Assembly: GCA_963753765.1 (NCBI GenBank) | Contig: CAVWDQ010000023.1 | Coordinates: 136,586-200,585, forward strand | DNA length: 64,000 bases | Reading direction: 5' to 3' | Source of the DNA: an uncultured Bacteroidales bacterium | Lineage (GTDB): Bacteria; Bacteroidota; Bacteroidia; Bacteroidales; GCA-2748055 | Shown here: in pieces, positions 1 to 24,725 of the stretch | How positions within the stretch are numbered: position 1 is the stretch's first letter | Layout of the letters: every line of letters starts with the position of its first letter | Translations under genes and position numbers: made by a program | Notes under the pieces: model-generated | Seen by the model: only the letters and a program-made list of their open reading frames with translations | The model's database searches: none | What the model was told of the DNA's origin: nothing

Positions 1-441
1 GGGGTTTTATTTGAAGTTGGACATGGCGGAGGAAGCTTTGTGTATGAGCAAGCCCTGCCTGCCCTGGATCAGGGATTTCTGCCCGATATGATCAGTACGG
101 ATCTGCATACAGGAAGCATGAATGCAGGCATGAAGGACATGCTCAATGTGATGTCCAAGTTCCTGAACATGGGCATGCCTTTACAGGATGTTATTGCGCG
201 CTCCAGCTGGTTGCCTGCGGTCCATATCAACAGAGAGGAACTGGGGCATCTGAGTGTGGGGGCGCATGCCGATATTGCCGTGCTTAACCTGAAAAAGGGG
301 GATTTCGGATTCACCGACGTCAGAGGATGGAAGTTACAGGGAGATAAAAAACTGGAATGTGAACTGACCCTCCTGGAAGGGAAAGTTGTATGGGATTTGA
401 ATGGAATTTCCATGCAGGAATGGGAAGCAAATAATAAATAA
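1..441 (+). CDS. amidohydrolase-family metallohydrolase, C-terminal part (5' end lies outside the window)
   Basis: Frame 1 is open from base 1 to the TAA at 439-441. The translation GVLFEVGHGGGSF...STDLHTGSMN...GHLSVGAHADIAVLNL...LLEGKVVWDLNG looks like the C-terminal part of dihydroorotase/deacetylase-like amidohydrolases. Confidence 0.7.
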   Translation, partial: GVLFEVGHGGGSFVYEQALPALDQGFLPDMISTDLHTGSMNAGMKDMLNVMSKFLNMGMPLQDVIARSSWLPAVHINREELGHLSVGAHADIAVLNLKKGDFGFTDVRGWKLQGDKKLECELTLLEGKVVWDLNGISMQEWEANNK

Positions 442-476
442 CAATAAATGCACACCAATTTTTAAAATATAGACTT

Positions 477-953
477 ATGAAAAAAAATGAACCGAATTCC
501 AGAAGAAAAGCTTTAAAAGGAGTAGTGGCAGCCGCAGCTGTCGGATTGGGAGCCGCAACTGTAAAAGCTGCAACTCCGAAATCGGACAAGCCGGAGAAAA
601 TCGCTGGCAACATCACCATGCAGGACGATGTGCCCCTCTTTTCAGGACACACGATCCTTGGGAATCTGGTCTTCATTGCGGGCAAAGGGGCCCACTTTGA
701 GGGAGACATCAGTGACCATACGGATCACGTACTCAAGGAACTGGAGAAAGAGCTTGTGAAGGCCGGCACCTCCATGGACAAGGTGTTGAAAGTAAATGTG
801 TACCTGCATGATCTCAACGATTATCATGGTATGAATAAGGTGTACAAAGGGCGCTTCGGCAAAAACCCACCTGTAAGAACTACAGTAGCTACTTATGGCG
901 GAGTACCGGGTGACTCACTGGTGGAGATTGATTGTATCGCAGCACTGGACTAA
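477..953 (+). CDS. RidA (YjgF/L-PSP) family protein with Tat-type signal peptide
   Basis: 158-aa ORF. The N-terminus has the twin-arginine motif SRRKALKG followed by the hydrophobic VVAAAAVGLGAATVKA. The body is RidA-like (GNLVFIAGKG, VNVYLHD, PGDSLVEIDCIA). Confidence 0.85.
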   Translation: MKKNEPNSRRKALKGVVAAAAVGLGAATVKAATPKSDKPEKIAGNITMQDDVPLFSGHTILGNLVFIAGKGAHFEGDISDHTDHVLKELEKELVKAGTSMDKVLKVNVYLHDLNDYHGMNKVYKGRFGKNPPVRTTVATYGGVPGDSLVEIDCIAALD

Positions 954-954
954 T

Positions 955-2169
955 ATGGAAACAAGACGATCAGTACTTAAAAAGCTGGGCACCCTTCCAC
1001 TTGTGGGAGGTTTGTTCGGTACAGGTTTGCTGGCCGGTAGTCCGGTTGCCAGTCCTGTTCAGGGTCCGGGCATCCGGAGAGACTATTTCAAGGAGCTGGG
1101 TGTAAGGACCTTTATCAACGCAGCCGGAACCTATACCTTCATGACCGGATGTCTTATGCACCCGGAAGTGATTGATGCCTATAACTACGCCACAAACGAA
1201 TATGTGTTCCTTGACGACCTTCAGGATAAGGTGGGAGAACGAATCGCTGAGCTTCTCAAATGCGAAGCAGCCACCGTAACTTCGGGGGCCGCTTCAGCCA
1301 TTACCCTGGGCACTGCTGCTGTACTGGCAGGGATGGATCCGGACAAGGTGGCCCAGATTCCCGATCTGACAGGGATGAAAAGCGAAGTGATCATGCAGAA
1401 GTCCCATCGCATAGGCTATGCCCATGCCATCAGGAACTGCGGGGTCAACATCGTGTATGTGGAAACCCGTAAGGAACTGGAAAAGGCCATCAATGAGAAG
1501 ACGGCCATGATGTGGTTTTTCAACGGGAACAATTTTGTTGGAGAAATCCAGGATGAAGAATTCATTGAGATAGCCCGGAAACACGGAATTCCCACCTTTA
1601 ATGACTGTGCAGCTGATGTGCCACCAGTGGAAAACCTGTGGAAATACACCAATATGGGATTTGATATGGTGGCCTTCTCAGGAGGTAAAGGTCTCAGAGG
1701 ACCTCAAAGCACCGGTCTTCTGCTGGGCAAAAAGAAGTATATCGATGCTGCCCGGCTTCATGCACCTCCAAGGGGGAATACCGTTGGAAGAGGGATGAAA
1801 GTAAACAAGGAAGAGGTACTGGGTATGCTGGTCACCATTGAATCCTATCTGAATCGGGATCATGAAGCAGACTGGGCCCTGTGGGAGATGCAAATTCAGA
1901 TGATCCATGATGCAGTGGCTGATATAGAGGGCGTCATTCCTGAGATTCACGTTCCAAAGGTTGCCAATCATGTGCCTTCCCTGAATATCTCCATGGATCC
2001 TGATAAAACTGCCTGGACTCCGGACAAGGTAAGGCAACAGCTTAAAGAAGGACATCCTTCCATTGAAACGGTGGGTGGATCAAAATCAATAGGCATTACT
2101 ACCTGGATGATGGATCCAGGACAGGAAAGGATCGTTGCAAGCCGGCTCAGGGAGATTCTATTGTCATAA
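955..2169 (+). CDS. SelA-like / DgaE-like PLP-dependent enzyme (aminotransferase class V fold) with Tat-like N-terminus
   Basis: Start placed at ATG 955 (METRRSVLKKLGTLPLVGG...), not at 895, which would overlap RidA. Motifs DYFKELGVRTFINAAGTYT and FSGGKGLRGPQSTGLLLGKK match the SelA-like family. The stop TAA at 2167-2169 overlaps the next ATG. Confidence 0.7.
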   Translation: METRRSVLKKLGTLPLVGGLFGTGLLAGSPVASPVQGPGIRRDYFKELGVRTFINAAGTYTFMTGCLMHPEVIDAYNYATNEYVFLDDLQDKVGERIAELLKCEAATVTSGAASAITLGTAAVLAGMDPDKVAQIPDLTGMKSEVIMQKSHRIGYAHAIRNCGVNIVYVETRKELEKAINEKTAMMWFFNGNNFVGEIQDEEFIEIARKHGIPTFNDCAADVPPVENLWKYTNMGFDMVAFSGGKGLRGPQSTGLLLGKKKYIDAARLHAPPRGNTVGRGMKVNKEEVLGMLVTIESYLNRDHEADWALWEMQIQMIHDAVADIEGVIPEIHVPKVANHVPSLNISMDPDKTAWTPDKVRQQLKEGHPSIETVGGSKSIGITTWMMDPGQERIVASRLREILLS

Positions 2170-3892
2170 TGGGCCGAAGAAGGTTCATCAAACAATGCGG
2201 TATACTGGGAGCTGGAACGGTCAGCTCCCTTGCCTGGAATTCCAGCATGGCTTCCGTTCTGGCCAAACCCCTGGGAGATGAACTGAGGAGTGACATTATC
2301 ATAATCGGGGGAGGATTGGGTGCTTGTGCAGCTGCTCTTGCCGCATGCAGGAATGGGTCCTCGGTGATCATGACTGAACCCACAGACTGGATCGGTGGGC
2401 AGGTCAGTCAGCAGGCCGTACCTCCCGACGAACATCAATGGATTGAGTCACATGGACGAACAGCAAGTTATGCCAGGTACCGTTCATTGGTCCGGGATTT
2501 TTACCATAAGAATTATCCGCTTTCCGGAATGGCCCGGAAGGCGGATTTTCTAAACCCGGGAAACGGAGCGGTATCCAGGCTTTGTCATGAACCAGCAGTT
2601 TCGGTAGCCGTACTTGAATCCATGCTGGCCCCGGCAATCAGCAATGGTCAGCTGAAGATCCTGTTGAATACTGAACCGCTTGAAGTCCATACGGATGGGG
2701 ATTCCATCCGGGCTGTGAGCTGTCATACAGGAGAGGAAAAACGAAGCATTGTACTAAATGCTGCATTCTTCATTGATGCCAGCGAAGAGGGGGATCTGTT
2801 AAAGCTATCCGGATGTGAGTATTTCATTGGAGCAGAATCCCAGAAACAAACTGGTGAAAGGCATGCCCCTGAAAAGGAGGATCCCACCAATATCCAGGCC
2901 ATGACCCATTGTTTTGCAATGGATCACCTGGAGGGAGAGGACCATACCATTGCCCCCCCGGCCATGTATCAGTTCTGGAAGGACTATGTACCCCCCCTCC
3001 ATCCTGCCTGGCCAGGGAAACTGCTTTCCCTGACCTACACACATCCCAGAACATTGCTGCCAAAAACATTGTCCTTTGTACCCCCGGACAGAAAAGGAAT
3101 GATGCCAAAAACAGAGGCCTTGAATCTCTGGTTGTACCGAAGGCTCATTGACCGGAACAATTTCGAAGCCGGGAGATTCCCAGGAGTGATATCACCCTGG
3201 TGAACTGGCCGCAAAATGACTACCTGCCGGGGAATATTACAGATGTCAGCCCGGAGGAACGCAGAGAAAATTTAGAAGAAGCCAGGCAGTTGAGTCTGTC
3301 GCTATTTTACTGGCTTCAGACAGAGGCTCCTCGTCCGGATGGCGGACAGGGTTGGAAAGGCTTGCGTTTACGCGGGGATATCACAGGAACAGAAGACGGG
3401 CTGGCCAAGTATCCTTATATTAGAGAATCCCGAAGGATACTTGCCGAAACTACCATTCTGGAACAGGATATTTCGCTTGAGGACAGAATGCAAATCACGG
3501 GTTTAACACAGGAAGAAGTACGGGCCAAAGCCTACCACGACTCTGTGGGAATTGGATATTACGCCCTGGATCTTCACCCCAGCACCGGAGGGGACAATTA
3601 TATTGACATGGCCAGCGTACCTTTTCAGATCCCACTGGGAGCTCTGATCCCCGTACGCATGGAGAACCTGATCCCGGGTTGCAAGAATATCGGAAGCACC
3701 CACATCACCAATGGCTGTTACCGGCTCCATCCGGTTGAATGGAATATTGGGGAAGCTGCAGGTTCCCTGTGTGCCTTTTCCCTGAAAAGGAGAACTATAC
3801 CCAGACAGGTCAGGAACTCCCAAAACTTACTTTCCGAATTTCAAGATCTTCTAAAGGAAAGTGGTTTTGAACTGGCATGGTCCGAATCATAA
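2169..3892 (+). pseudogene. FAD-dependent oxidoreductase (Tat signal), one frameshift
   Basis: ORFs 2169-3203 (frame 0) and 3200-3892 (frame 2) are the N and C halves of one protein. Motifs are GRRRFIKQ (Tat), IIIIGGGLGACAAALAA (FAD fold), then [12 protein letters not shown]...[29 protein letters not shown]. Frame 2 is open from 3152. Joining at the G3 run 3171-3173 gives [21 protein letters not shown]. Confidence 0.75.
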
Positions 3893-3918
3893 GAGAATTT
3901 TAACGACAAAACAAAAAT

Positions 3919-4659
3919 ATGAGAACTCTATCCATTCTGTTCATCTTACTAATAAGCATTCTTGCCAGCTGCAAAACAGAAGCAGAAGTAGAAGAAGGTT
4001 CCAGATACAAGGTAACCAGGCTGGAAGAGAGGCCGGAAATAAATGCTGTCTGGGATAAGGCTCCATGGACCGGAATTGAGTCGCTTCAGCTGACACATTA
4101 CATGGGGGATAAGCCGGAGCATTTTCCCCTTGTGGAAGCAAAGATCGCCTATGATAATCTGGCCATTTACGTCATATTCAGGGTGAAGGATAAATATGTG
4201 AAAGCAGTACACAGCGAGCACCAGGATCCTGTCTATACCGATAGTTGCGTGGAGTTCTTTTTTAGTCCGGATGATAATAGCAGTGAGGGCTACTTTAACC
4301 TGGAAATGAATTGCGGGGGGATTATGTTGTTCCATCATCAGACCGAGCCACGGACGAATCAGGTTCATATTGCTGCAGAGGATATTCAGCAGGTGGAAGT
4401 TGCCCACAGCCTGCCACAGATTGTGGATCCCGAAATTGAGGAGGATACCACCTGGTTTGTAGAATACAGGATCCCCTTTTCTGTACTTGCATCCTACCGG
4501 GATTTCCCTGTCCCGGAGAGCGGTACCATCTGGCGGGCCAACCTCTATAAATGCGCGGATGCAACTTCACACCCGCACTGGCTCACCTGGGCTCCCATTG
4601 ACCTGCCCAGTCCCAATTTCCATCAACCGGATTTCTTTGGAATTCTTGAGTATCAATAG
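3919..4659 (+). CDS. carbohydrate-binding family 9-like (DOMON-like) lipoprotein
   Basis: 246-aa ORF with lipobox ISILASC. WDKAPW...AKIAYDNLAIYVIFRVKD...YTDSCVEFFFSP...YFNLEMNCGG matches the CBM9-like pattern. Confidence 0.6.
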   Translation: MRTLSILFILLISILASCKTEAEVEEGSRYKVTRLEERPEINAVWDKAPWTGIESLQLTHYMGDKPEHFPLVEAKIAYDNLAIYVIFRVKDKYVKAVHSEHQDPVYTDSCVEFFFSPDDNSSEGYFNLEMNCGGIMLFHHQTEPRTNQVHIAAEDIQQVEVAHSLPQIVDPEIEEDTTWFVEYRIPFSVLASYRDFPVPESGTIWRANLYKCADATSHPHWLTWAPIDLPSPNFHQPDFFGILEYQ

Positions 4660-5998: not shown

Positions 5999-8249
5999 TC
6001 AGCTGATTGACTTTCCGTTCAGATCCAGGTCCTGTATGTAATAGTTCCCGGGCTCCAGGTTTTCAGACTTGATAACCAGCATGTTGCCGGGATCGCCCGA
6101 GAGCTGCAGGCTTACTTTTTCAAAGACGGGGCTGCCAAACTGAAAGCTGGGATCAGCGGCAGCGTGCCCCTGAACATCAAAAAGTCCCAGGGCAGCCATT
6201 ACGTACCAGGCTCCCAGCTGCCCCTGGTCCTCATCCTGGCCATAACCGTATCCGTGCAAGGGTTCAGTCCCGTAAAATTCATCGCATATGGTCCGGGTCC
6301 ACTTCTGTGTCAGCCAGGGCTTGCCCGAATAGTTGAACAGCCAGGCATTGTGCAGACAGGGCTGGTTCCCGTGATTATAGAGCATATCCACTCCGGAAAA
6401 ACTGTGGATCTCCTTTCCCCCGCCAAAGATGCTCTTCTGTGCATCGGTAAACATCTGCTCAAGCCGCTCATTAAAAAGATCCTGCCCCACTGCTTCCATG
6501 AGTCCGGCAATGTCGTGGGGGACATACCAGGTATACTGATAGGCATTTCCTTCCTGGAATCCTCTCCATCCCTCCAGCGGATCGAAATCCTCCACAAAGG
6601 TCCCGTCGGGATACCTGGGACGAATAAAGCGGGTTTCCGGGTCAAACAGGGCTTTCCAGTATCCGGCCTGCTCCATTAATTTCCTGTAATCTTCCTCCTG
6701 CCCCAGGCCTTTGGCCATCTGCGCCACTGCATAGGAGCTAAAAGAGTATTCCAGGGTATGGGAACCTCCGAAATTAAACACCCAGCCATTGGACAGGACG
6801 GTATCCGCTGAATGGAACATAGCCCAGTCTGTTGAACCAGTGCATATCGTACTTGCCATTCCCCAGGTTGCGCCCATTGGCTTCCGTTTCGTTTTTCAGG
6901 GCTGCTTCATATCCTTTTTCCAGGTCGAATCCCCGGATCCCACAGTTGTAGGCTGAGGCAAGAAGCAATCCCTGGAAATTGGTCTGCACACCATTGGTAA
7001 ACACACCCGCTGCAACTCCATCATGCAGCCAGCCGGTCTCCCCGTAGAAATCGATATTCGATTGTACATACTGAACCAGGTAATCGGGATAAACCAGTGC
7101 CCAGAGCTGACCCAGGTTCCAGAATCCTCCCCAGATGCCATCTGTGTTGTAGTGCTTGTACTGCGGATGCCCGTTCTGGTCCAGGGGAATCTGTCCGCTT
7201 CCTCCATCATTCCTGACATATTGTCCATTTACATCACTTGCCAGTCCCCGTCCCAGCAGGGCATGGTAGAGTCCGGTATAGAACTTGGTCATGTCCTCCC
7301 TGCTACTGCCCTCCACCCGGATACGTCCCAGCATCTGGTTCCATTGGTGAGTGGCCTCTTTGTGTACCTGGTCAAAGCTCTGTCCTTCCGATTCGGTGTC
7401 CAGGTTAATCCGGGCATTCTCCAGGCTGGTATAGGAGAGGCCCACCTGCATCTCCACCACCTCATCAGCAGAGGTGGAGAAAAGCAGATATAGGCCGTTC
7501 CCCACTCCACGGGTAGAGGTGGAATCTGCCTTCAGAAGGGAATCATAGAATATGCCCACCTGTTCCGGCTCTTTATTCAGCCGGGCCACAAAATACATTT
7601 TTACCCGGTTTCCGGGATCGCAGAACTTGGCATACTCGGGGTAGGTTTCGACATACCCTTCCACTTCCTTTTCATTTACCACCTGTGCAAAGGCCTCTGT
7701 TACATCGCTGCTCTCCCCCTGTTTGTGACCAATATCGAAGATGATACCCGAGCTGGCCGACTGGGGAAAGGTGTAACGGTGAAATCCAACACGTTCCGAG
7801 GAGGTAAGTTCCGCTTTCACCTGGTAATCCTTTAATAATACTGAATAATAACCCGGTTCTGAGTGCTCATCTGCTTTTTCAAAGCGGGATCGATATCCTT
7901 CATCAGGATTCTCCAGGGATCCGGGAGTAGTAAGGATATCACCGGTAAAGGGCATCACCACCACTCCCCCGATCTGGAATTCATGGAAATGTCCGAATCC
8001 CTCTATGGAGCCGTGACGGTCATCGTAGCCCCCGGGCAACCAGCTTCCCTCGCTTCCATATGCGTTGGTGTGGGGAGCCAGTTTGGCCATCCCAAAGGGC
8101 AGGGAAGCAGGTGTATAGAAAAACCAGCGTCCGTGAACCGACCCAATCTGAGGATCCACATATTGAACTGCATCGAATGCCTCATTTCCTGCCTCTGGCT
8201 GACAGGAAATGATCAGGGGCAAGAAAGCCAGAAGTAAGAATTTTCTCAT
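5999..8249 (-). pseudogene. GH92 alpha-mannosidase, one frameshift
   Basis: Minus-strand ORFs 6774-8249 and 5999-6877 are the N and C parts of a roughly 750-aa GH92 (QYVDPQIGS, GHFHEFQIGG, GNAYQYTWYVPHD, DEDQGQLGAWYV). The join RLGYVPFS / ADTVLSNGWVFNFGG falls around 6815-6820. Confidence 0.85.
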
Positions 8250-8251
8250 AA

Positions 8252-9343
8252 TTATTCGATTTTATATTTCCTGACCCTTTCCATGATCCTGTTCACCTGA
8301 TCTACGCTTTTAGTGGATTTAACCACATAAAAGACCCCGCCGGGAAGGGTGTTCCTTTTTAAATGGTATTCGAAAGTATCTTCGTCCACGTTCACCACCA
8401 GGGGAACGTCGCCAACCTGTTTCCTTATCTCGGGCAACACATCAAAGGCCGGAGGATTATCTTTCTCATCCAGCATAAGGATGGCTTTTAAACCTTCCAG
8501 GCTGGAAACTGCATTTAAGAGATGTCTGCCGTTGCTGTGAATGTGCAGGACGCCTCCATCGAAATGATTGAACATCCGCTGTACATTTGCTTCTCCCCAT
8601 TCCTGGTAATCCTCCACCGAGGTCATGTGAAAGGGATCCACACTCTCTGAAATCACCCTTCCCGGGACCCACTGCACCATGTTGCTGAAGGTTCCCCCGA
8701 GAAATGAAGGGGTATTTTCAAAGAAGGTTTCCTGGACCCTGACATTTAAATCAAAAGCAAAATCAATGATCTGCCGGACGATGTCAGGAACCTCGAACAG
8801 ACTGAGATAGGTTTTGGTGGCACCTACCAGTTCAAACACAAAGTTCAGGGAATCTATCAGGATGAAATGGCTGATGCCAAAGCGGTTCTCCGACATCCTG
8901 GAAAATATCTCCAGCTGCTGCAGGTAAAGGCGAAACCAGGGATGGCTTTCCTCAAAGGGCCGGAGCTGGAATTGGGTCAGATCGTCCATCAATGGTTTGA
9001 CCATGGAAGAGATCCACCCTGTTCCTGGATCTTTCAGAAACTGCATCTCCCCTCCCATAAGAGCACCATAGAGTCCCTGGTCAAATTCACTGAGGTAGGC
9101 CGAAGGAATCTGGTCATCCTCGCATAAGCTCTTCTCCTTCAAAAGGCTGTCCCAGAAGCGGGCACGTTCTTGTGGATCCGGGTAGCTGGTGTAGCCTTCG
9201 GCATGATTAGCCCGAAATTGTTCCATGGTACGTGTTGGAATCTGAAAATCTGCAAAAATCTGATCCCCTGCCTTCCTTTCATATAGTGTATTGAGCCTTT
9301 TAATAACATCACCTGCACCATGTTTATATGCAATACTTTCCAT
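8252..9343 (-). CDS. hypothetical protein, possibly uroporphyrinogen-decarboxylase (URO-D) superfamily fold
   Basis: Intact 363-aa ORF that abuts the GH92 start. The C-terminal half (GGVLHIHSNGRHLLNAVSSLEGLKAILMLD) resembles URO-D-like TIM barrels. Assignment is by weak recall only. Confidence 0.35.
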   Translation of the reverse strand: MESIAYKHGAGDVIKRLNTLYERKAGDQIFADFQIPTRTMEQFRANHAEGYTSYPDPQERARFWDSLLKEKSLCEDDQIPSAYLSEFDQGLYGALMGGEMQFLKDPGTGWISSMVKPLMDDLTQFQLRPFEESHPWFRLYLQQLEIFSRMSENRFGISHFILIDSLNFVFELVGATKTYLSLFEVPDIVRQIIDFAFDLNVRVQETFFENTPSFLGGTFSNMVQWVPGRVISESVDPFHMTSVEDYQEWGEANVQRMFNHFDGGVLHIHSNGRHLLNAVSSLEGLKAILMLDEKDNPPAFDVLPEIRKQVGDVPLVVNVDEDTFEYHLKRNTLPGGVFYVVKSTKSVDQVNRIMERVRKYKIE

Positions 9344-9348
9344 GAGAA

Positions 9349-10399
9349 TCAGGCTTTTGTTGCATCAGGCTCCGGAGTGGTGGCAAAGCCATGGGTCGTC
9401 TCAACCATGGCCCGGATATTCTCTGAAGGAGTATCGGGTGGAATGGCGCAGCCTGCATTGATCATCAGCCTGGGAGAGTCACGGTAAATCTCCAGCAGCT
9501 CTAAAGTCTTCTGCTTCACCAGCTCCGGACTTCCATAGTTTAAAACACCCGAGGGATCCAGGTTCCCGATAAAAAGTGTGGAAGCATGGCATTGGTCGTA
9601 GATCTTCTGAATATCAGTAAGGTAATCCAGTTCCAGGGCATCGGCCCCGGTCTGTACCATATCCTCCAGGATCACTTCCGTATCCCCGCAAATATGCAGT
9701 GTATAAGTCAATCCCAGGCGATGTGCTTCATTCCACCAGTTTTTTCTCGTAGGGAAGGGCAAATTCCCGGTAGAACTCCGGCGGGATCATCTCGGGACCG
9801 GCCACACTATCGCCATTGGAAACCATATGGGCACCGGTCTCCGCCATCAGCCTGATAAACTGAAGCCCCGCTTCGGTGGTATAATCCAGCAAGCGGTGTA
9901 CTGCCTCAGGATCCATGAGCAGATCAGTCATCAGTTCCTGTGATCCGCGTACCATGCTGGCCAGCGAGAAAGGTGCCTGATCGCAGTTCCCCCGGATATA
10001 CTTTTCCTCTCCAAAATAGTCCTTTACAATCCGTGTAATCTCCAGCCAGTGCTGGATTCCCGCATCCTTGGCCACATTCACAGGGGCCATGTCCTGAACT
10101 TCCTCCAGGGAAGAGATCAGGCCGCCGTGGGTGCGTGCAGGTTCATCCTCCGGGTAGTCCACCGGCACCCCAAGAGAACCGGCCAGGGTGGCCGTACTCA
10201 AATCGATCAGCAATCCATCAATATTATATTTTTCAGCAGCATGGATAAAGGCCCTTGCTGCTGACTGCGGGTCTTCCCCGAACTCTTTCATGCTAATACC
10301 CTCTTCACGGGCTGCCATCAAAAAATTGTGGAGCATCACGGGACGCCTGTCGGTCCATTTTCCCTCCAAAGCTGCCTGAATACGTTCTTTTCCGGTCAT
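9349..10399 (-). pseudogene. uroporphyrinogen decarboxylase family (MtaA/CmuA-like) protein, one frameshift
   Basis: Minus-strand ORFs 9728-10399 and 9349-9762. The N-terminus KERIQAALEGKWTDRRPVM and the C-half YTLHICGDTEVILEDMVQTGADALELD are typical of the URO-D family. The frames join at FALPYEK / NWWNEAHRLG inside the T6 run at 9740-9745 (A6 on the coding strand). Confidence 0.75.
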
Positions 10400-10430
10400 A
10401 TATTTAGTTCTTATTAGTTCAGCCTTAATC

Positions 10431-11762
10431 TTATTTATTTTTTCTTTCGATCTCCTCCAGGGTCATATTGCTGGTTTCGAACAGGAATTTACGGAATATG
10501 AAGAAACCTGCAAAGGTCATCACCGAAAAGAAGGCAAAGCTGAGACCAATCCCCACACCATCTCCGAAAGCCCCGGCTACAACCGGAAAGAGAAAGGTGA
10601 TGCTGCCATTGACGATCCAGACAGCGAAAGAACCCATGGCCACTCCCCTGGAGCGAATGCGATTGGGGAATACCTCCGCCAGAAGAACAAATACCACTGC
10701 GCCCATAGATCCTGCAAATGAAGCCACAAAGCCAATCAGAAAGAAGAGCATCACGCCCCCTCCGAAAGGATCAAAGAGAAATTCAAGCGCGAATAGTCCG
10801 AGGAAAAGGGCCATACTCAACATACCGGTAAGTAACATTTTCCTGCGGCCAAGGCGGTCGATAAAGCGCATGGCCAGAATGGTGAACACCAGGTTCACCA
10901 GTCCCAGGATCACGGTCTGCCCGATGGCCGAATCGGTGGAAAAACCTGCGGCACGAAAGACATCTGTAGCGTAGTACATGACAACTGCAATACCTGTAAA
11001 CTGGGCAAACATTCCAATGGTGATCCCAATGAAGGTGAATTTCCGGTTGGGTTTTTTAAAGAGACGCTCCTTTTTCTCCAGCTTTTCAGTATCCAGTGAC
11101 TTCCGGATCTCATCCAGGATTCCCTCCGTATCTTCGTCCGGATTAAGCTCCCTGATGATCTTTTCTGCTTCCTCCAGCTTTCCAATCTTAATAAGCCACC
11201 TGGGGCTCCTTGCTACCCGGTATAGGAGCACCAGGAAGAAGAGAGCCGGCAGAATTTCCGATAAAAACATAAATCTCCAGTTATTGGGACCCGTATGAAT
11301 CAGGAGATAATCCACAAAGAAAGCCACCAGGATCCCCAGCACAATCGCCAGCTGAAAGGAAACAATCAACCTGCCCCTGTGTGAGGCCGGTGCAATCTCC
11401 GATATATAGGTAGGAGAAAGTACCGAGGCAATTCCCACTGCAAGTCCACCGATAAAGCGGGCCAGAATAAAAACCTGAATATGGGGTGCCAGGCCGGTGC
11501 CGAAAGCAGACAAAAGAAAGAGGATGGCAGATAGCTTGAGCATATCCCGCCTGCCATATCGATCCCCGGGCCTGCCAGCCCCGATGGCCCCCACAATACA
11601 TCCAAGCAGGGCAGAGCTTACTGCCCAGCCCGTCATCACGTCACTCAGGCCAAAGTGGCCGGTAAAGAAGGGAAGTGCACCGTTAATTACGGCCGTGTCA
11701 AATCCATAAAGCAGTCCACCTATGGCAGCCACAAGGGTATAAAGCAGGAGTTTTCTTTTCAT
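10431..11762 (-). CDS. MFS sugar porter family transporter
   Basis: Start at ATG 11762 (MKRKLLLYTLVAA). Sugar-porter signatures are GFDTAVINGALPF, GRPGDRYGRRDML, ARSPRWLIK and PNRIRSRG, with multiple hydrophobic helices. Confidence 0.85.
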   Translation of the reverse strand: MKRKLLLYTLVAAIGGLLYGFDTAVINGALPFFTGHFGLSDVMTGWAVSSALLGCIVGAIGAGRPGDRYGRRDMLKLSAILFLLSAFGTGLAPHIQVFILARFIGGLAVGIASVLSPTYISEIAPASHRGRLIVSFQLAIVLGILVAFFVDYLLIHTGPNNWRFMFLSEILPALFFLVLLYRVARSPRWLIKIGKLEEAEKIIRELNPDEDTEGILDEIRKSLDTEKLEKKERLFKKPNRKFTFIGITIGMFAQFTGIAVVMYYATDVFRAAGFSTDSAIGQTVILGLVNLVFTILAMRFIDRLGRRKMLLTGMLSMALFLGLFALEFLFDPFGGGVMLFFLIGFVASFAGSMGAVVFVLLAEVFPNRIRSRGVAMGSFAVWIVNGSITFLFPVVAGAFGDGVGIGLSFAFFSVMTFAGFFIFRKFLFETSNMTLEEIERKNK

Positions 11763-11825
11763 ATGAATCGGTGAGAGCACATAAAAATAACCTTCTTTTC
11801 AGAAAAAACTACTATTTTCAAGCCT

Positions 11826-12793
11826 ATGAATGCGAAAGTCAAAATACCCTGGGAAGAACGACCTCAAGGATCCTCTGATGTGATCTGGCGCTATTCCGGG
11901 AACCCGATCATCGGGCGGTATGAGATCCCCTCCTCAAACAGCATCTTCAATAGTGCAGTGGTCCCTTTCGGGGAGGGATATGCAGGTGTATTCCGCTGCG
12001 ACAACAAAGCGGTGCAAATGAACATCCATGCCGGATTCAGCCGGGATGGCATCCACTGGGAGATCGAGCATCATCCCATCGAGATGCAGCCTGGCAACAC
12101 AGCGATGATCGAATCTGATTACAAATATGATCCCCGGGTAACCTGGTTGGAGGACAGGTACTGGGTGAGCTGGTGCAACGGCTATCACGGTCCCACCATC
12201 GGAATTGCCTATACTTTCGATTTCAAGGAATTCTTCCAGTGCGAAAATGCCTTTCTTCCCTTCAACCGGAACGGAGTCCTTTTTCCCGAGCGAATTGATG
12301 GCAAATATGCCATGCTTAGCCGTCCCAGCGACAACGGACATACACCCTTCGGGGACATATACATCAGCTTCAGTCCCGACATGAAATACTGGGGGGAACA
12401 CCGCTGTGTTATGAAGGTGAGTCCCTTTGAACAAAGTGCCTGGCAATGCACCAAGATTGGCGCAGGTTCTGTCCCCATACCCACAGATGATGGATGGCTG
12501 ATCTTCTATCACGGTGTCATTAATACCTGCAATGGTTTCCGATATTCCATGGGGGCTGCGATCCTGGACCTGAAGATCCATCCAGGGTCCTTTACCGTAC
12601 CCAGCCCTATATGCTTGCTCCTGCCCTCCCGTACGAACTTGCCGGGGATGTCCCCAATGTGCTGTTCCCAACAGCCGCTCTATGCGATGAGGAAAAAGTA
12701 GCTATCTACTATGGGGCTGCGGATACCGTAGTTGGACTGGCTTTTGGATATCTTTCCGAGATCCTCGATTTCACCAGATCCAACTCAATCTGA
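11826..12793 (+). pseudogene. GH130 beta-mannoside phosphorylase family, one frameshift
   Basis: ORFs 11826-12701 (frame 0) and 12611-12793 (frame 2). [18 protein letters not shown]...[16 protein letters not shown]...[19 protein letters not shown] is GH130-like. Frame 2 reads [37 protein letters not shown]. Joining at about 12572 gives [15 protein letters not shown]. Confidence 0.85.
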
Positions 12794-12839
12794 CAGAAGA
12801 AAAAGTTACATTTGTTTTATTATTTCCCAAAAACCTATC

Positions 12840-14093
12840 ATGGAAAGAAGAGACTTCTTAAAGAAAAGCGTGCTCGGAGCAGCAGCTTTTACCATTGTAC
12901 CCCGACATGTACTCGGGGGACCCGGTTTTACGGCTCCCAGTGACCAGATTACCAAAGCCATCATTGGTGTAGGAGGAATCGGATACAACCACCATTTCAC
13001 GCGCGAAGGACGCCTGGTGGCCGTATGCGATGTGGACCGCCTTCACCTGGAAAGAGCCCTTAAGAGAGCCGGCGAAGGAATAAAAGGCTATTCAGATTTC
13101 CGTGAGCTGCTGCTTCAGAAAGATATTGATATCGTTCATATTGCTACTCCCCCCCACTGGCATGGAACCATGTCGGTGATGGCTGCAGAAGCCGGGAAGG
13201 ATATCTGGTGCGAAAAACCCATGACGCGTACCATTGGAGAAGGCAAACGGGTTATAGAGGCCGTACAGAACAATGGAAGCATGTTCAGGCTGAACACCTG
13301 GTTCCGTTTCAGAGGTGGATTCTACGGGCTGGGTACTGAGGTGAAGCCTTTAAAGAAAATCGTTGACAGCGGCGTACTGGGATGGCCCCTGAAGGTCACC
13401 GTCTCCGGAATCACCGGCTACGACTGGAAGTTTTACTGGAGTGGTGATACAAACCTGAAGCCAGAGCCGGTACCTGAGAACCTGGATTATAATATGTGGC
13501 TGGGCCCTGCTCCGGTCAAACCCTACAATCCTCTAAGGGTACACTCCAAGTTCCGTGGCTTCTGGGATTATGACGGGGGCGGACTGGGTGATATGGGTCA
13601 GCATTACCTGGATCCCGTACAATATATGCTCAATAAGGACCATACCAGCCCCATTAAGGTGGAAGTGGATGCGCCACAGCAACATCCCGATGCCGTAGGA
13701 TCATGGCGCAGGATCACCTATACTTATGAAGATGGCTGCCAGATCATCCTGGATGGAGAGAACAGGGACAAGGATGCCGCTTACATTGAAGGACCCAATG
13801 GGAAGATCTTCCGCGGTTTCCGTTCCACCATACCCAACATACAGCAACTGGCTGCTACCCTGCCCGATCCGGAACCACAGATTACATCCTTTCATGAATC
13901 GGTTCGGACCCGTCAGAAATTTGCACTCAATGAGATGAACGGACACCGCTCATGTACCGTTGTCAACATGGGTGTGGCCGCACTAAGACTTGGACGTACC
14001 CTTCATTTCGATCCTGTAAAACAGGAGTTTATCAATGATGAAGGAGCCAACCGGCTGATCTATCCCGAGATGCGTTCACCCTGGAATATTTAA
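12840..14093 (+). CDS. Gfo/Idh/MocA family oxidoreductase with Tat signal
   Basis: ATG 12840 gives MERRDFLKKSVLGAAAFTIVP (RRDFLKK Tat motif). It has the Rossmann motif IIGVGGIGYNHH and the WCEKPMT motif typical of the family. Confidence 0.85.
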   Translation: MERRDFLKKSVLGAAAFTIVPRHVLGGPGFTAPSDQITKAIIGVGGIGYNHHFTREGRLVAVCDVDRLHLERALKRAGEGIKGYSDFRELLLQKDIDIVHIATPPHWHGTMSVMAAEAGKDIWCEKPMTRTIGEGKRVIEAVQNNGSMFRLNTWFRFRGGFYGLGTEVKPLKKIVDSGVLGWPLKVTVSGITGYDWKFYWSGDTNLKPEPVPENLDYNMWLGPAPVKPYNPLRVHSKFRGFWDYDGGGLGDMGQHYLDPVQYMLNKDHTSPIKVEVDAPQQHPDAVGSWRRITYTYEDGCQIILDGENRDKDAAYIEGPNGKIFRGFRSTIPNIQQLAATLPDPEPQITSFHESVRTRQKFALNEMNGHRSCTVVNMGVAALRLGRTLHFDPVKQEFINDEGANRLIYPEMRSPWNI

Positions 14094-14124
14094 AAAGTTG
14101 CAATAGATTATAAAGCTTACAAGA

Positions 14125-17100
14125 ATGAAACATATCAGAATATCCCTCATTGCACTGTTTACCCTGCTGCTGCTTAGCAATCCGCTTACAGCACAGGATA
14201 AGCGAACAACTGAAACCAAAGTGGCCGACCTGCTGGTACAGGTGCCTGCTGCCGATCAGCAAAAGCTGAATGAACAAATGCAATCCATGCTCAGCCTGGA
14301 GGAAGCAGGCTTGCAAATGATCATGGACCTGGTCATTCCCCCCGGAACAGGTGACGACACCAAAGCACGCACGGCCATTGAGAGCCTGTCGCGCTATCTC
14401 AGTCAGCCCGGCATGGAAATGCAACAAGTCCGCTGGGAAGAAATGATTCTGAAAGAGATTGAACTCAGGGATAATCCCCTGGTAAAAAGCTTTTTCATCC
14501 GTCAACTTAACTATTTCGGAAGTGAAGTAGCCATTGAGAGTCTCAAAGTCTACCTGATTGATCCTGAACTACAGGATCCTGTGATAAGGGCCATACGGGA
14601 TATTGATCCGGAAGAAGCTGCAGATCTATTTGCAGATCAACTGGACAAGTGTGATGGAAGATTGCAGATCGCCCTGGTCAATGCCATCGCAGAATGCGGG
14701 AACAGCAATCACGCCGAGGCCATAGCAAGTCTTGCAGGGAGCAGTTCTCCGGAACTCCAGAGAAGCGTACTGGCCTGCCTGGCAGAATTGGGAAATCCCG
14801 AATCACATGCACTCTTAAGTAATACAGCCAAAAAAACAGGCTATTTACCTGAGCCTACCCGGGCCACCAGCAGCCTGATTGTCTACGCACAGACTTTATC
14901 CAGGCAAAACAATTCGGACCTGAGTCTGAAAATTTGTAAAAGTCTGATGAAAAAGTGTACAGCTCCTGAGCAGGTTCACTTCAGGAACGCCGCCCTGATC
15001 ACCGCTGCAGACAGCGAATCCATGGAGAAAAGCATCCACCTGCTGTTGAATGCCATGAAGGAAGATAATAAGGTCTATCGAATGACGGCCATCCGCTATG
15101 CAGCAAAAAACAACACCCCGGTCAATCCCTGGATCTCTGAGCTTAAAAGCATTAAAAACAGTGAGGTGAAAGCTGAGATTCTCAGCCTGTTCGGAATGCT
15201 TAAAAGCGACGAAACTGTGGTTATTCTTAACAGCTATCTGGACGATCAGGATTCTACTGTGCGCCAACAGGCTGTTCTTAGCCTGGCACTGATCAAGCAT
15301 AGTGAAGCAGTTCCCGACATTCTTAAGTACAACATTTCCTATCCCCATGAGCCGGATAGTAAGACCGCCAAAGCAGCGCTATTGCAGACCGTGAGCCTGG
15401 ATCAGCTTCCTTTGCTTACAAAAGAGCTGGACAATGCACCTGAAGGGGCAAAAGTTGTATTGATAGAAGTGATTGCAGCCAGGGGCGACCCAGAATCCTT
15501 TGATATCCTGTACGATCAGATTTCACAAACAGGAGCTGTAAGGTCAGCTGCCATGAAGAATCTCTATCTGGTTTCCGACCAGGGAGACCTGGGGGATCTG
15601 ATGAAGCTTTTTGATCAGCTGGAAGACGAAGATGAAATTGCAGCCATTGAGGCAGCACTGGTAGCCTCCATAAACCGTGGATCCCATAAGGAGGTGACCA
15701 CCCAGGCCCTGTTATTGCATGCCGCCAGAAACTTTTCCGTAGAGAAATATATTGGAGTGCTGGCCACTGTGGGTGGTAAAGAGGCCCTGGAGGCCGTTTA
15801 TGAATCCTATGGCAGCGGGGACGAAGAAACACGGAAGAGGGCCTTTACCGGGCTGACAAAGTCGGACGATATTCATGCTGCCTCTCCCCTCTTCGAAATC
15901 TGCTCACAATCCAGCGTTGACCAGGAGATAGAAGAAGCCTTTCAAAGCTATGTGAGGATAGTGTACTCATCCTCGCTTCCAGATGACCAGAAACTGCTCT
16001 TATTAAGGAAAATTGCACCCTATTCAGGCAGCGTCCGCAACACGGGTCGCTTGCTAAGAGCCATGGGTGGAATAAAGACCTTCCTGAGTTTTGTGACCCT
16101 CAGTACTTTCATGGACCAGGAAGAACTGAAAAGCCAGGCGGCCAATGCACTGGTTAATGTGGTGCTGCCCAGTAATGGACTGGACAATGGAATGACGGGA
16201 GAACTGGTGAAGGAAAAACTAATCAAAGCCAGTGATATCATCACCGGTCCGGATACCGAGTACCTGAAGATCGACATCCAGAACTACCTGGACAAGATGC
16301 CGGATGAACCGGGATTTGTCTCCATGTTTAACGGAAGCGATCTGGCAGGTTGGCAGGGACTGGCCACCGACCCGGTGAGCAAAGCGAAGCTTTCCGAAAA
16401 ACAACTTCAAAAGCTCCAGGATGAGGCCAATGAGAAAGTGAAGGAGAACTGGAGCGTCAAAGACAATTGCATCGTGTTTAACGGCGATGGTTCAAACCTC
16501 TGCAGCATCAAGGAGTATGGTTCTTTTGAAATGATCGTTGACTGGAGAATCACCAAAAAAGGGGATTCAGGCATTTACCTGCGCGGGACACCCCAGGTAC
16601 AGATCTGGGATACTTCCAGGGTGGAAGCTGGTGCCCAGGTTGGTTCTGGTGGATTATACAACAACCAGGAACATGAAAGCATCCCGCTGCTGGTGGCAGA
16701 TAATCCCATTGGTGACTGGAATACTTTCCGTATTACCATGATAGATGATAAGGTTACCGTCTACCTCAACGGTCAGCTTGTGGTTGACAATGTGGTCATG
16801 GAGAACTACTGGGACAGAAGCATTCCCATCTTCCCCACCGGCTCCATTGAACTTCAGGCCCATGGCACTGACCTGGCTTTCAGGGATATTTATGTGAGAG
16901 AACTTAATGTGGATGCAAACAAACTCACCAAAGAGGAAAAAGAAGAAGGATTTGTCAGCCTTTTCAATGGCAAGGACCTTTCTAACTGGGCCGGCAACGA
17001 GCACAGCTACAGTGTGGAGGATGGGACCATTGTGATCCGTCCGGCTAAAAGCGGTGGAAACCTGTATACGGAGAAGGAGTATGCTGATTTTATTTTCCGT

Positions 17101-17517: not shown

Positions 17518-17521
17518 TAGT

Positions 17522-17546
17522 TGCTGATCCTATCTAAGGGTCAGCA
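17522..17546. terminator. candidate bidirectional hairpin terminator between convergent genes
   Basis: TGCTGATCC (17522-17530) and GGGTCAGCA (17538-17546) form an imperfect 9-bp stem (one mismatch) with a 7-nt loop. It lies between the stop of the + gene (17517) and the stop of the - gene (17530). Confidence 0.35.
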
Positions 17547-18872: not shown

Positions 18873-18950
18873 GCTGTTGTGGTTTTAGTTTAGTACAGAA
18901 ATAATCAGGTAGTCCCCAAATTTAACGATTTTAATAAACTTAAGCTTGAA

Positions 18951-20451: not shown

Positions 20452-20454
20452 CAA

Positions 20455-21240: not shown

Positions 21241-21350
21241 GATTTGGGTTTTAGTAGTTGAATCAATGCTTGACAGACTGCAATTTAACAAACTCTTTCC
21301 TATATTTATGTAGCATCCTGTTTTTTCCAAACAGCAAAAGAATAAAGAGC

Positions 21351-24668: not shown

Positions 24669-24725
24669 TATGGATTTTTAAGTTTTAGATGTATATTTAG
24701 GATCAATCAATAATTCCAATCCAAA

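What the first reader, a model, noticed from the sequence alone, without database searches (positions are those of the whole stretch)
1..4659. Operon of Tat-exported RidA + SelA/DgaE-like PLP enzyme + FAD oxidoreductase
Three consecutive same-strand genes each begin with a twin-arginine motif followed by a hydrophobic stretch: SRRKALKG at 477, TRRSVLKK at 955 and GRRRFIKQ at 2169. They are packed tightly (stop 953 / ATG 955, and a TAATG overlap at 2167-2171). An amidohydrolase lies upstream and a CBM9-like lipoprotein downstream. The SelA-like family includes D-glucosaminate-6-phosphate ammonia-lyase (DgaE), whose chemistry releases an enamine/imine. RidA proteins hydrolyse such intermediates. 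Exporting a PLP enzyme, a RidA and a flavoenzyme together through Tat implies a periplasmic deamination/oxidation step on an amino sugar or amino-sugar acid. I do not know this as a characterised module.
Basis: partly seen in the sequence, partly recalled or inferred. Interest (0 to 1): 0.6.

Follow-up and report, generated by a model that had tools for sequence, protein, structure and literature searches.

The report
Exported deacetylase, RidA, PLP-lyase operon
A Bacteroidota operon sends a deacetylase-type hydrolase, a RidA imine hydrolase and a vitamin-B6 ammonia-lyase out of the cytoplasm, probably to strip acetate and ammonia from oxidised amino sugars in the periplasm. The neighbouring flavoenzyme is only a lineage-specific add-on and is frameshifted in this assembly.

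Summary
Genes 477-953 (RidA), 955-2169 (DgaE-like PLP enzyme) and 2169-3892 (PF12831 flavoprotein) are tightly packed, and each N-terminus passes the curated Tat-signal model.

- The flavoprotein gene is split by a +2 frameshift at about 3183.
- The operon starts upstream of the window, with a Tat DUF362 gene and a Sec-signal COG3964 amidohydrolase.
- The genome bin holds a second, collinear copy on contig C32 in which all of these genes are intact.

Across 80 loci from other species, the conserved unit is amidohydrolase + Tat-RidA + Tat-PLP enzyme. In Bacteroidota, RidA is adjacent in 52/62 loci and the amidohydrolase lies nearby in 45/46. The flavoprotein ortholog is adjacent only in the window's own lineage. 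Elsewhere it sits with esterases.

The PLP enzyme is neither SelA nor DgaE proper. It belongs to an exported sister clade that lacks DgaE's His-His pair and phosphate-binding arginines.

The best reading is periplasmic deacylation and beta-elimination/deamination of an unphosphorylated N-acyl-amino-aldonate. This is a non-orthologous, exported analogue of the cytoplasmic OngB/OngC/OngD and DgaE routes.

The module is uncharacterised: the 10 capped searches of the held paper library (open-access PMC and bioRxiv only) found no description of it. The substrate is inferred, not shown.

The parts
1..441 (+). 3' end (146 codons) of a 419-aa COG3964/PRK09237 deacetylase-type amidohydrolase with a Sec signal peptide. 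The gene starts 818 nt upstream of the window (L001 11182-12441). It follows a 517-aa Tat-signal DUF362 gene (L001 9627-11180) with a 1-nt gap.
   Evidence: ORFs; N-terminus MTRSIFKILCIVAFMGASLSVGAQ; HxH motif DNHVHVF. NF006689 scores 436.9 bits against a cut-off of 371; closest solved structures are 8JE0 'amidase', 2OGJ and 2ICS. DUF362.
477..953 (+). RidA-family protein of 158 aa, with a Tat signal (SRRKALKG, then AAAAVGLGAATVKA) and a roughly 25-aa linker before the Rid domain (residues 57-156).
   Evidence: PF01042, 69 bits. TIGR01409 scores 18.6 bits on the full-length protein and 22.2 bits on the N-terminal 37 residues (cut-off 16.7); aligns to RidA structures, with the catalytic arginine retained (PPVRTTV against kPARvaV); 61/61 orthologs carry RR.
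955..2169 (+). DgaE-like fold-type I PLP enzyme of 404 aa with a Tat signal (TRRSVLKK). The PLP lysine is K245 in SGGK.
   Evidence: TIGR01437 195 bits (cut-off 385), NF047797 166 (cut-off 600), TIGR00474 45.7 (cut-off 268). PDB 7LC0 (DgaE) E = 1e-37 over residues 44-401; placed in the exported clade of the tree; active-site columns. Tat model 16.8 bits.
2169..3203 (+). N-terminal 344 codons of a PF12831 FAD-dependent oxidoreductase with a Tat signal (GRRRFIKQ). It runs into a stop because of the frameshift.
   Evidence: PF12831 148 bits, profile positions 1-190. Tat model 19.1 bits; the intact 572-aa ortholog in L004.
3183..3185 (+). Frameshift site. The window reads ttcccaGGagtgat where the intact alleles (C32 of the same bin, L004, L005) lack two bases.
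3152..3892 (+). C-terminal part of the same flavoprotein, in the +2 frame ([13 protein letters not shown]...).
   Evidence: PF12831 167 bits, profile positions 240-414..
3919..4659 (+). CBM9_2-family lipoprotein of 246 aa (lipobox ILASC). It is the conserved partner of the flavoprotein in this lineage, and of a PQQ dehydrogenase-cytochrome c gene in flavobacterial versions of the cluster.
   Evidence: PF16011, 150 bits; only an uncharacterised structure (4JPQ) matches..

Best explanation
The region is the larger part of a six-gene, same-strand operon of a Bacteroidota genome bin. The order is Tat-DUF362, Sec-amidohydrolase (COG3964 deacetylase type), Tat-RidA, Tat-DgaE-like PLP enzyme, Tat-PF12831 flavoprotein and CBM9_2 lipoprotein.

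Shown:
- The gene order, the protein families and the export signals and their conservation.
- Amidohydrolase + RidA + PLP enzyme is the conserved core, found in hundreds of species.
- The PLP enzyme belongs to an exported sister clade of DgaE.

Inferred mechanism, all in the periplasm:
1. The amidohydrolase removes the N-acyl (probably acetyl) group from a 2-acylamino-2-deoxy-aldonic acid, or a similar N-acyl-D-beta-hydroxy-amino acid.
2. The PLP enzyme is exported already folded with its cofactor by Tat. It eliminates the beta-hydroxyl group and releases an enamine/imine.
3. RidA hydrolyses this intermediate to a 2-keto-3-deoxy acid plus ammonia.
4. The substrate is unphosphorylated, because DgaE's phosphate-binding arginines are absent and the periplasm has no kinase or PTS.

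Fate of the product (inferred): in flavobacterial versions the same core is flanked by a PQQ aldose dehydrogenase-cytochrome c, an exported RraA-like aldolase and an SBF transporter. That gives a complete oxidise-deacetylate-deaminate-cleave-import route.

In this lineage the flavoprotein + CBM9_2 pair is an add-on. It may supply the oxidised sugar in place of the PQQ enzyme, but it is not part of the conserved core.

Its frameshift in the window is more likely a consensus error of the assembly than a real loss.
For: Anatomy and families.

Export:
- TIGR01409 is over its cut-off for all three proteins, and TatC is present.
- RR is found in 61/61 RidA orthologs, while the amidohydrolases carry Sec-type signals.

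PLP enzyme phylogeny:
- The near relatives among the representatives (the best-scoring hits, down to about 42% identity) carry Tat leaders unless they are fragments or fusions, whereas many of the more distant relatives start directly at the core.
- In the tree, the exported clade is split from a 56-row cytoplasmic clade that contains DgaE 7LC0, with SH-aLRT 95.

Core conservation in Bacteroidota:
- RidA directly upstream in 52/62 loci.
- Amidohydrolase within 5 kb in 45/46 loci.
- At least 593 species hold a relative.
- An amidohydrolase-PLP enzyme fusion protein exists (P0227).

Chemistry:
- PLP Lys is invariant, while DgaE His162/163 become N-N and Arg301/332/346 become S/V/W (residue roles from PMC9529869).
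- The RidA catalytic Arg is kept.
- 2OGJ, a COG3964 relative of the amidohydrolase, is an experimentally shown deacetylase (PMC4987910 citing Ornelas 2013).
- The characterised analogue has the same three activities, with the RidA essential: OngB deacetylase, OngC PLP deaminase and OngD RidA convert GlcNAc1A to KDG (PMC9537276).

Flanking genes in 31-34 of the 80 loci are PQQ GSDH-cytochrome c, SBF, Sec-signal RraA-like and a second Rid protein.

Frameshift as artefact:
- C32 of the same bin, and L004, are intact.
- tatC itself is split by a frameshift in this assembly, although about 126 ORFs carry Tat-like leaders.
Against: - No enzyme of the exported clade has been assayed, so the substrate is inferred from distant homology (about 30% identity to DgaE) and from gene context.
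- This genome has no PQQ GSDH-cytochrome c. Its RraA-like/SBF pair lies on another contig, so the full route is not encoded at this locus.
- In Acidobacteriota the PLP enzyme is mostly not linked to RidA (2/14) or to the amidohydrolase (0/7).
- The C-terminal-domain alignment behind the Arg301/332/346 call is of modest reliability.
- The surrounding genes here (GH92, GH130, esterases) do not point to chitin.
- Export was predicted, not measured. TatP/SignalP were not available, and the PLP enzyme's Tat score is only just over the cut-off (16.8 against 16.7).
Confidence: 0.55

Rival explanations
1. One reading: RidA, the PLP enzyme and the flavoprotein form one functional periplasmic unit. The flavoenzyme would either oxidise the sugar to the aldonate that the lyase uses, or itself generate an imine that RidA hydrolyses.
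For: - The stop of the PLP gene and the start of the flavoprotein gene overlap (TAATG).
- Adjacency is kept in the window's lineage: L004, L005 and C32, and L086 with one gene inserted between.
L086 confirms this for one pair.
- The flavoprotein carries a conserved Tat signal.
- A CBM9_2 gene sits next to the flavoprotein here and next to the PQQ aldose dehydrogenase in flavobacteria. That fits a swap of the oxidising enzyme.
Against: - Outside the immediate lineage, only 1/46 Bacteroidota loci have the ortholog near the PLP gene.
- Orthologs at 66-74% identity sit with GxDLY/GDSL, AXE1-like, Abhydrolase_7 and beta-lactamase-family genes, with no RidA or PLP gene nearby.
- L006 has the cluster without the flavoprotein.
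- The fold search gave only generic FAD-domain matches, so no reaction can be assigned.
Confidence: 0.2
2. The exported trio acts on N-acyl-D-amino acids, such as N-acetyl-D-serine or -threonine or peptidoglycan-derived material, and not on sugar acids. The PLP enzyme would then be a D-hydroxy-amino-acid dehydratase.
For: - DgaE's substrate has a D-amino-acid configuration at C2, and the Ong enzymes 'resemble the degradation of D-amino acids' (PMC9537276).
- From my own recollection of Ornelas 2013 (not readable here), the COG3964 relative Atu3266/2OGJ prefers acetyl-(R)-substituted carboxylates.
- A beta-lactamase-family gene lies divergently upstream.
- In Acidobacteriota there is no sugar-related context.
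Against: In 31-34 of the 80 loci the trio is collinear with a PQQ aldose dehydrogenase, a CBM9-like protein and an RraA-like aldolase suited to 4-hydroxy-2-oxo acids. That fits six-carbon sugar acids better than serine or threonine.
Confidence: 0.17
3. The PLP enzyme catalyses another PLP reaction in the periplasm (transamination, racemisation, desulfhydration). RidA would then have a role unrelated to its product.
For: Weak Pfam matches to Aminotran_5 and Cys_Met_Meta_PP. The DgaE catalytic His pair is missing.
Against: - The best full-length match by far is the DgaE family (195 bits; 7LC0 E = 1e-37).
- The tight, conserved pairing with a RidA that keeps its catalytic Arg argues for an enamine/imine-releasing lyase.
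Confidence: 0.06
4. The RR N-termini are not functional export signals and the proteins are cytoplasmic.
For: The PLP enzyme's Tat score is at the threshold. No dedicated signal predictor was run.
Against: - The RR plus hydrophobic leader is conserved across orders and phyla, while cytoplasmic relatives lack any extension.
- The partner amidohydrolase and RraA-like proteins carry Sec signals.
Confidence: 0.02

Closest known systems
Ong cluster for oxidised chitin in Pseudoalteromonas prydzensis ACAM 620 (OngB deacetylase, OngC PLP deaminase, OngD RidA, KdgK; PMC9537276)
   Same: The same three activities are encoded together: a metal amidohydrolase, a PLP-dependent deaminating lyase and a RidA protein that is genetically essential. 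They turn an N-acetyl-amino-aldonate (GlcNAc1A) into acetate, NH3 and 2-keto-3-deoxygluconate.
   Different: - The paper describes the Ong enzymes as cytoplasmic, and they act after uptake by an SSS transporter.
- OngB is a D-aminoacylase-type enzyme and OngC a 'D-amino acid deaminase'. These are different subfamilies from the COG3964 hydrolase and the DgaE-like enzyme here.
- The relation is therefore analogy, not orthology.
- The product is phosphorylated by KdgK there, and no kinase is linked here.
[quoted passage not shown]
   Same: It is the closest solved and characterised homolog of the PLP enzyme (E = 1e-37, full length). Both share fold type I and the PLP lysine. In both cases the reaction logic is beta-elimination followed by an aldolase step.
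   Different: - DgaE is cytoplasmic, is fed by a PTS, and acts on a 6-phosphate.
- The window's enzyme has a Tat signal and scores far below the DgaE cut-offs.
- It lacks the His162/His163 pair and the Arg301/332/346 phosphate cluster.
- It falls in a separate, exported clade.
EF_0837/COG3964 amidohydrolases (PDB 2ICS, 2OGJ) paired with SelA-related TIGR01437 genes in Firmicutes and Proteobacteria
   Same: The two families are the same as here. The full-length amidohydrolase scores 216 bits to TIGR03583 and passes NF006689. A natural fusion of the two families exists (P0227).
   Different: Those pairs are cytoplasmic and, from my own recollection of the TIGRFAM notes, are linked to PTS genes. 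They lack RidA and export signals, and their function is also unknown.
SelA, selenocysteine synthase (TIGR00474; PDB 3W1H)
   Same: A distant relative within the same fold-type I PLP superfamily. This is the source of the common misannotation 'L-seryl-tRNA selenium transferase'.
   Different: The score is 45.7 bits against a cut-off of 267.9, there is no N-terminal tRNA-binding domain, and the genome has no SelA or SelB over cut-off.

Membership tests
[quoted passage not shown] | Score over the curated family cut-off | tested here: not met
   NF047797 scores 166.4 against 600. TIGR01437 scores 195 against 385.3.
[quoted passage not shown] | Full-length fold-type I homology with the PLP lysine (K213) | tested here: met
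   7LC0 matches at E = 1e-37 over residues 44-401. K245 aligns to K213, which is invariant in all 95 rows tallied (31 Tat-clade, 64 cytoplasmic) and in 101/102 rows of the earlier alignment.
[quoted passage not shown] | His162-His163 pair, 'strictly conserved in DGL' (PMC9529869) | tested here: not met
   The query has N192-N193. The exported clade has A/Q/H/D/N at this position and no His-His.
[quoted passage not shown] | Arg301/Arg332/Arg346 cluster, where the substrate phosphate was placed by manual docking in PMC9529869 | tested here: not met
   The query has S342, V373 and W384. In the exported clade Arg is found in 5/31, 2/31 and 0/31 rows. The alignment of this domain is of modest reliability.
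SelA (selenocysteine synthase, TIGR00474) | Family cut-off, N-terminal tRNA-binding domain, and Sec machinery in the genome | tested here: not met
   The score is 45.7 against 267.9, covering only profile positions 201-341. The mature protein is about 360 aa. No SelA or SelB over cut-off is found in the genome.
RidA / Rid family (PF01042; TIGR00004) | Domain match and catalytic arginine (Arg105 of enterobacterial RidA) | tested here: met
   PF01042 scores 69 bits against 27.3. Arg in PPVRTTV aligns to the PAR arginine of the solved RidA homologs (PH0854 2DYY, 2CSL). The narrower TIGR00004 cut-off is not reached (62.5 against 106.25), so it is a Rid-family member but not a canonical RidA by that model.
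Tat substrates (TIGR01409 signal) | Twin-arginine motif plus hydrophobic region over the cut-off, a Tat machinery present, and conservation in orthologs | tested here: met
   Scores are 22.2, 16.8 and 19.1 against 16.7. TatC is present, though frameshifted in the assembly. RR is conserved. Actual export is not testable here.
COG3964 / PRK09237 amidohydrolase-deacetylase (NF006689) | Score over the curated cut-off and the HxH metal motif | tested here: met
   The score is 436.9 against 371. The motif DNHVHVF is present. The closest structures are 8JE0, 2OGJ and 2ICS.
Ong pathway enzymes (OngB, OngC, OngD) | Orthology to OngB (D-aminoacylase type) and OngC | not tested
   No Ong sequences were at hand. 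The paper's family names differ from the families found here, so the relation is treated as functional analogy only.
PF12831 FAD-dependent oxidoreductase | Pfam gathering score over both halves | tested here: met
   The halves score 148 and 167 bits against 27, covering profile positions 1-190 and 240-414. No narrower family or solved relative was found.

The most novel reading that the evidence does not exclude
A catabolic branch for oxidised amino sugars runs wholly outside the cytoplasm. A PLP-dependent ammonia-lyase and a RidA are exported folded through Tat and work with a Sec-exported deacetylase. In other lineages they also work with a PQQ dehydrogenase-cytochrome c and an exported RraA-like aldolase. 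Acetate, ammonia and pyruvate-level products would then be made in the periplasm, with electrons passed straight to the respiratory chain. As far as I know and could search, this would be the first described Tat-exported PLP enzyme and the first periplasmic RidA. In that setting RidA would act as a pathway enzyme rather than as a guard against cytoplasmic damage.
Probability: 0.4. Interest if true: 0.72.

Novelty: new variant of a known kind. Interest (0 to 1): 0.5.

Why it matters
PLP enzymes and RidA proteins are textbook cytoplasmic proteins. The accepted role of RidA is to protect cytoplasmic PLP enzymes from 2-aminoacrylate.

A conserved, exported deacetylase/PLP-lyase/RidA module found in hundreds of Bacteroidota and Acidobacteriota species would imply the following:
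- Deamination of amino-sugar acids can occur in the periplasm.
- Tat can carry PLP holo-enzymes.
- RidA can serve as a committed pathway step.

It would also correct a widespread misannotation ('selenocysteine synthase') and point to a route for oxidised chitin or other amino-glycan carbon and nitrogen in soil and sea.

For this particular window the added value is modest. It is one more instance of the module, with a lineage-specific flavoprotein + CBM9_2 appendix and an assembly that is full of frameshifts.

Tried and rejected
- **Literature.** Searches for DgaE+RidA, 'SelA-like'+twin-arginine, Rid family+periplasm, glucosaminate+PQQ+Bacteroidetes, twin-arginine+pyridoxal, PF12831 and 8JE0 found no description of the exported module. 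A nicotine-pathway paper mentions a Rid protein, but not a periplasmic one. The COG3964 paper (PMC3542638) is not held.
- **Locus search.** The search for related loci with the diverse 22-sequence alignment failed for lack of a conserved stretch. A closer 8-sequence alignment worked.
- **C-terminal extensions.** I asked whether the 120-140-aa C-terminal extensions of some PLP homologs are fused RidA domains. Pfam finds nothing there, so the idea was rejected.
- **Flavoprotein structure.** The AlphaFold2 model of the intact L004 ortholog has pLDDT 66. The PDB fold search gave only generic two-domain FAD folds at TM 0.2-0.3, so no function could be assigned.
- **DUF362 structure.** The DUF362 model has pLDDT 73. 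Only the C-terminal Ig-like/FlgD-like sandwich matches anything, and the DUF362 core has no solved relative.
- **Tat labelling.** My first automatic Tat/no-Tat labelling of homologs was faulty because the core regular expression misfired. It was redone from the alignment.
- **His-His column.** The first MAFFT run misaligned this column. It was redone with L-INS-i.
- **Promoters and terminators.** The scan of 1-5000 found no more sites than in shuffled sequence.

Full report
**What is in the sequence**

The plus strand of window 1-4659 carries the following genes:
- 1-441: the last 146 codons of an amidohydrolase gene.
- 477-953: a 158-aa RidA-family gene.
- 955-2169: a 404-aa PLP-enzyme gene.
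- 2169-3203 and 3152/3200-3892: a PF12831 flavoprotein gene in two frames.
- 3919-4659: a 246-aa CBM9_2 lipoprotein gene.

There is one base between the RidA stop and the next ATG, and a TAATG overlap at 2167-2171.

Pfam and NCBIfam confirm the families.

The window is C23:136586-200585 of a 33-contig genome bin. Reading upstream (L001) shows that the amidohydrolase is a 419-aa protein with a Sec signal. It passes the curated model NF006689, 'amidohydrolase/deacetylase family metallohydrolase' (436.9 bits against a cut-off of 371). One base upstream of it ends a 517-aa DUF362 gene with an MKRRKF N-terminus.

The gene upstream of that is divergent, so the unit is a six-gene operon. The finding covers its last four and a half genes.

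**Export signals**

- The curated Tat-signal model TIGR01409 (cut-off 16.7) scores 22.2 for RidA, 16.8 for the PLP enzyme and 19.1 for the flavoprotein.
- The genome encodes TatC.
- A crude motif count of my own finds Tat-like leaders on about 3.8% of long ORFs (126 of 3355).
- Conservation is the stronger argument. All 61 RidA orthologs found next to the PLP gene in other genomes carry RR followed by a hydrophobic stretch, whereas the amidohydrolase orthologs carry Sec-type signals.
- RR-x-F is kept in at least 90% of 35 flavoprotein orthologs, including planctomycete ones.

**Placing the PLP enzyme**

- It scores 195 bits to the DgaE-family model TIGR01437 (cut-off 385) and 166 to the DgaE equivalog (cut-off 600). 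It scores only 45.7 to SelA (cut-off 268).
- The best solved relative is DgaE itself (7LC0, E = 1e-37, full length).
- The genome has no SelA or SelB over cut-off.
- Against 1.84 billion representative proteins, the near relatives (the best-scoring hits, down to about 42% identity) carry Tat leaders unless they are fragments or fusions, and many of the more distant ones begin directly at the catalytic core.
- A tree of 102 full-length representatives was built with the leaders removed. It separates a clade of 44-46 rows from a 56-row clade (SH-aLRT 95). The first clade holds the query and 30-31 Tat-bearing rows, the rest being mostly fragments or miscalled starts. The second clade has no leaders at all and contains DgaE.
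- The PLP lysine is invariant in both clades.
- DgaE's His162/His163 pair is described as strictly conserved in DgaE enzymes (PMC9529869). In the query it is N-N, and it is absent from the exported clade.
- The Arg301/332/346 cluster was proposed to hold the 6-phosphate. In the query it is S/V/W.

The enzyme is therefore a DgaE relative, but not DgaE. Its substrate is very likely unphosphorylated, which fits a periplasmic location.

**What is co-conserved**

One scan of 185,579 species' genomes found at least 593 species with a relative and returned the 80 best loci: 64 Bacteroidota, 15 Acidobacteriota and 1 Balneolota. tblastn with the window's proteins and clustering of all flanking ORFs gave these numbers for Bacteroidota:

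| Neighbour of the PLP gene | Loci |
|---|---|
| RidA directly upstream, same strand | 52/62 |
| Amidohydrolase within 5 kb | 45/46 |
| CBM9_2 within 9 kb | 24/46 |
| DUF362 within 9 kb | 4/46 |
| Any PF12831-like gene within 9 kb | 5/46 |
| True ortholog of the window's flavoprotein | 1/46 (plus short contig L004) |

In Acidobacteriota the linkage is weak: RidA is adjacent in 2/14 loci and the amidohydrolase nearby in 0/7.

A natural amidohydrolase-PLP enzyme fusion exists (P0227).

In an even sample of 300 other Bacteroidota genomes, only 4 carry a close relative. The module is therefore patchy rather than universal.

**The flavoprotein**

Orthologs at 66-74% identity in other genomes lie beside GxDLY/GDSL lipases, AXE1-like and Abhydrolase_7 esterases, beta-lactamase-family proteins, pectate lyase and GH97. 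No RidA or PLP gene is nearby (L084, L085, L087). The same esterase families lie just upstream of the operon in this genome.

In L086 the order is amidohydrolase, RidA, PLP enzyme, GH141-like beta-helix protein, flavoprotein, CBM9_2. In L006 the flavoprotein is absent.

The flavoprotein + CBM9_2 pair is thus a separate unit that abuts the trio only in the window's lineage.

No solved relative exists. An AlphaFold2 model of the intact L004 ortholog (pLDDT 66) matched only generic FAD folds. Its reaction is unknown.

**The frameshift and the second copy**

Relative to L004, L005 and contig C32 of the same bin, the window has two extra bases (GG) at about 3183-3184. They split the flavoprotein.

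C32 (38.1 kb) is collinear with C23:109006-144819 along its whole length, at 83-95% nucleotide identity. It carries intact copies of all six genes. It is best read as a co-binned strain variant, since contamination of the bin is 5.7%.

In the 6 kb downstream block the two contigs differ by only four indels. All four are extra G or C bases in C23. Three of them are the frameshifts of the flavoprotein, of the gene at 4683-5847 and of GH92.

tatC itself is split by a frameshift in this assembly. A real loss of tatC is hard to reconcile with roughly 126 Tat-type leaders in the genome. I therefore regard the frameshifts as probable consensus errors.

**How it most likely works**

The flavobacterial versions of the cluster have this order: CBM9_2, PQQ glucose/sorbosone dehydrogenase fused to cytochrome c, amidohydrolase, SBF transporter, Sec-signal RraA-like protein, Tat-RidA, Tat-PLP enzyme, and a second Rid-like lipoprotein. 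This is seen in L032, and each of these flanking families occurs in 31-34 of the 80 loci.

This suggests a complete extracytoplasmic route:
1. An aldose is oxidised to the aldonate.
2. The N-acyl group is removed.
3. PLP-dependent beta-elimination releases an enamine/imine.
4. RidA hydrolyses it to a 2-keto-3-deoxy acid plus NH3.
5. A class II pyruvate-aldolase-type protein cleaves this 4-hydroxy-2-oxo acid.
6. The product is imported.

The characterised Ong pathway has the same deacetylase, PLP deaminase and essential RidA logic on GlcNAc1A, but in the cytoplasm and with different enzyme subfamilies (PMC9537276).

A COG3964 relative of the amidohydrolase (2OGJ) is an experimentally shown deacetylase (PMC4987910).

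What is shown here is the anatomy, the signals, the clade structure and the co-conservation. The substrate and every catalytic step are inferred.

In the window's genome the PQQ enzyme is absent, and RraA-like/SBF lie on contig C5 next to a Tat-signal enolase-superfamily dehydratase. The local operon therefore encodes only the deacylation and deamination steps, plus the unassigned DUF362 and flavoprotein/CBM9_2 genes.

**Earlier notes of this scan**

After I had reached this reading, look-ups showed that other agents had described the same exported trio in several other genomes, with the same Ong/DgaE comparison. These are AI notes and do not count as independent evidence. They show only that the module recurs.

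**Verdict**

The conserved feature is an uncharacterised, exported variant of a known kind of pathway. The flavoprotein is an accessory. This instance adds little beyond other instances, apart from the lineage-specific flavoprotein/CBM9_2 and DUF362 association and the active-site comparison with DgaE.

Noticed in passing
Genome contig C32 (L089 = C32:26001-38111), compared with window -27579..8234: The whole of 38.1-kb contig C32 is collinear with C23 at 83-95% nucleotide identity. It carries an intact second copy of the six-gene operon, of the 387-aa gene and of GH92. It is probably a co-binned strain variant rather than a duplication. Identity is mosaic: DUF362 is 83% identical, while CBM9_2 and the C-terminal half of the flavoprotein are 96-97%.
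   Followed up: partly
window 5220, 6003 and 6807: Single extra G/C bases relative to C32 split the minus-strand gene 4683-5847 (intact at 387 aa in C32) and the GH92 gene 5999-8249 (intact at 780 aa in C32). Every indel in this 6-kb block is an insertion in C23.
   Followed up: partly
G000 contig C17:13936-14638 (L002 1165-2305, minus strand): tatC is split into two overlapping ORFs in different frames, although the genome has about 126 ORFs with Tat-like leaders. This argues that many frameshifts in this assembly are consensus errors.
   Followed up: partly
G000 contig C5 (L088 2832-9341): A Sec-signal RraA-like gene and an SBF transporter gene are divergent from a Tat-signal (NRRSFLKK) enolase-superfamily MR_MLE dehydratase gene, which is followed by a GH78 rhamnosidase gene. 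This looks like another exported sugar-acid step that may feed the same aldolase/transporter pair found inside the flavobacterial trio clusters.
   Followed up: partly
L001 208-9502 (window -11792..-2498): Upstream of the operon lies a set of esterase-type genes: AXE1-like (724 aa), Lipase_GDSL_3, a beta-helix protein in three ORF pieces, a Tat-signal Abhydrolase_7 and an 810-aa beta-lactamase-family protein. The same families accompany the flavoprotein's orthologs in unrelated genomes (L084, L085, L087).
   Followed up: partly
L001 9627-11180 (DUF362 protein, residues about 420-517): The C-terminal 100 residues of the Tat-signal DUF362 protein model as an Ig-like/FlgD-like beta-sandwich that resembles domains of PorU and PorZ. 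The DUF362 core has no solved relative. The family variant is small (251 proteins at E <= 1e-5). Many of its members show the same longest-contig length as SelA-like homologs, which suggests that they share contigs.
   Followed up: partly
Proteins P0128 and P0243: Some relatives of the PLP enzyme are fused to SAM-dependent methyltransferase domains, at the N-terminus in one and the C-terminus in the other. Their meaning is unknown.
   Followed up: no
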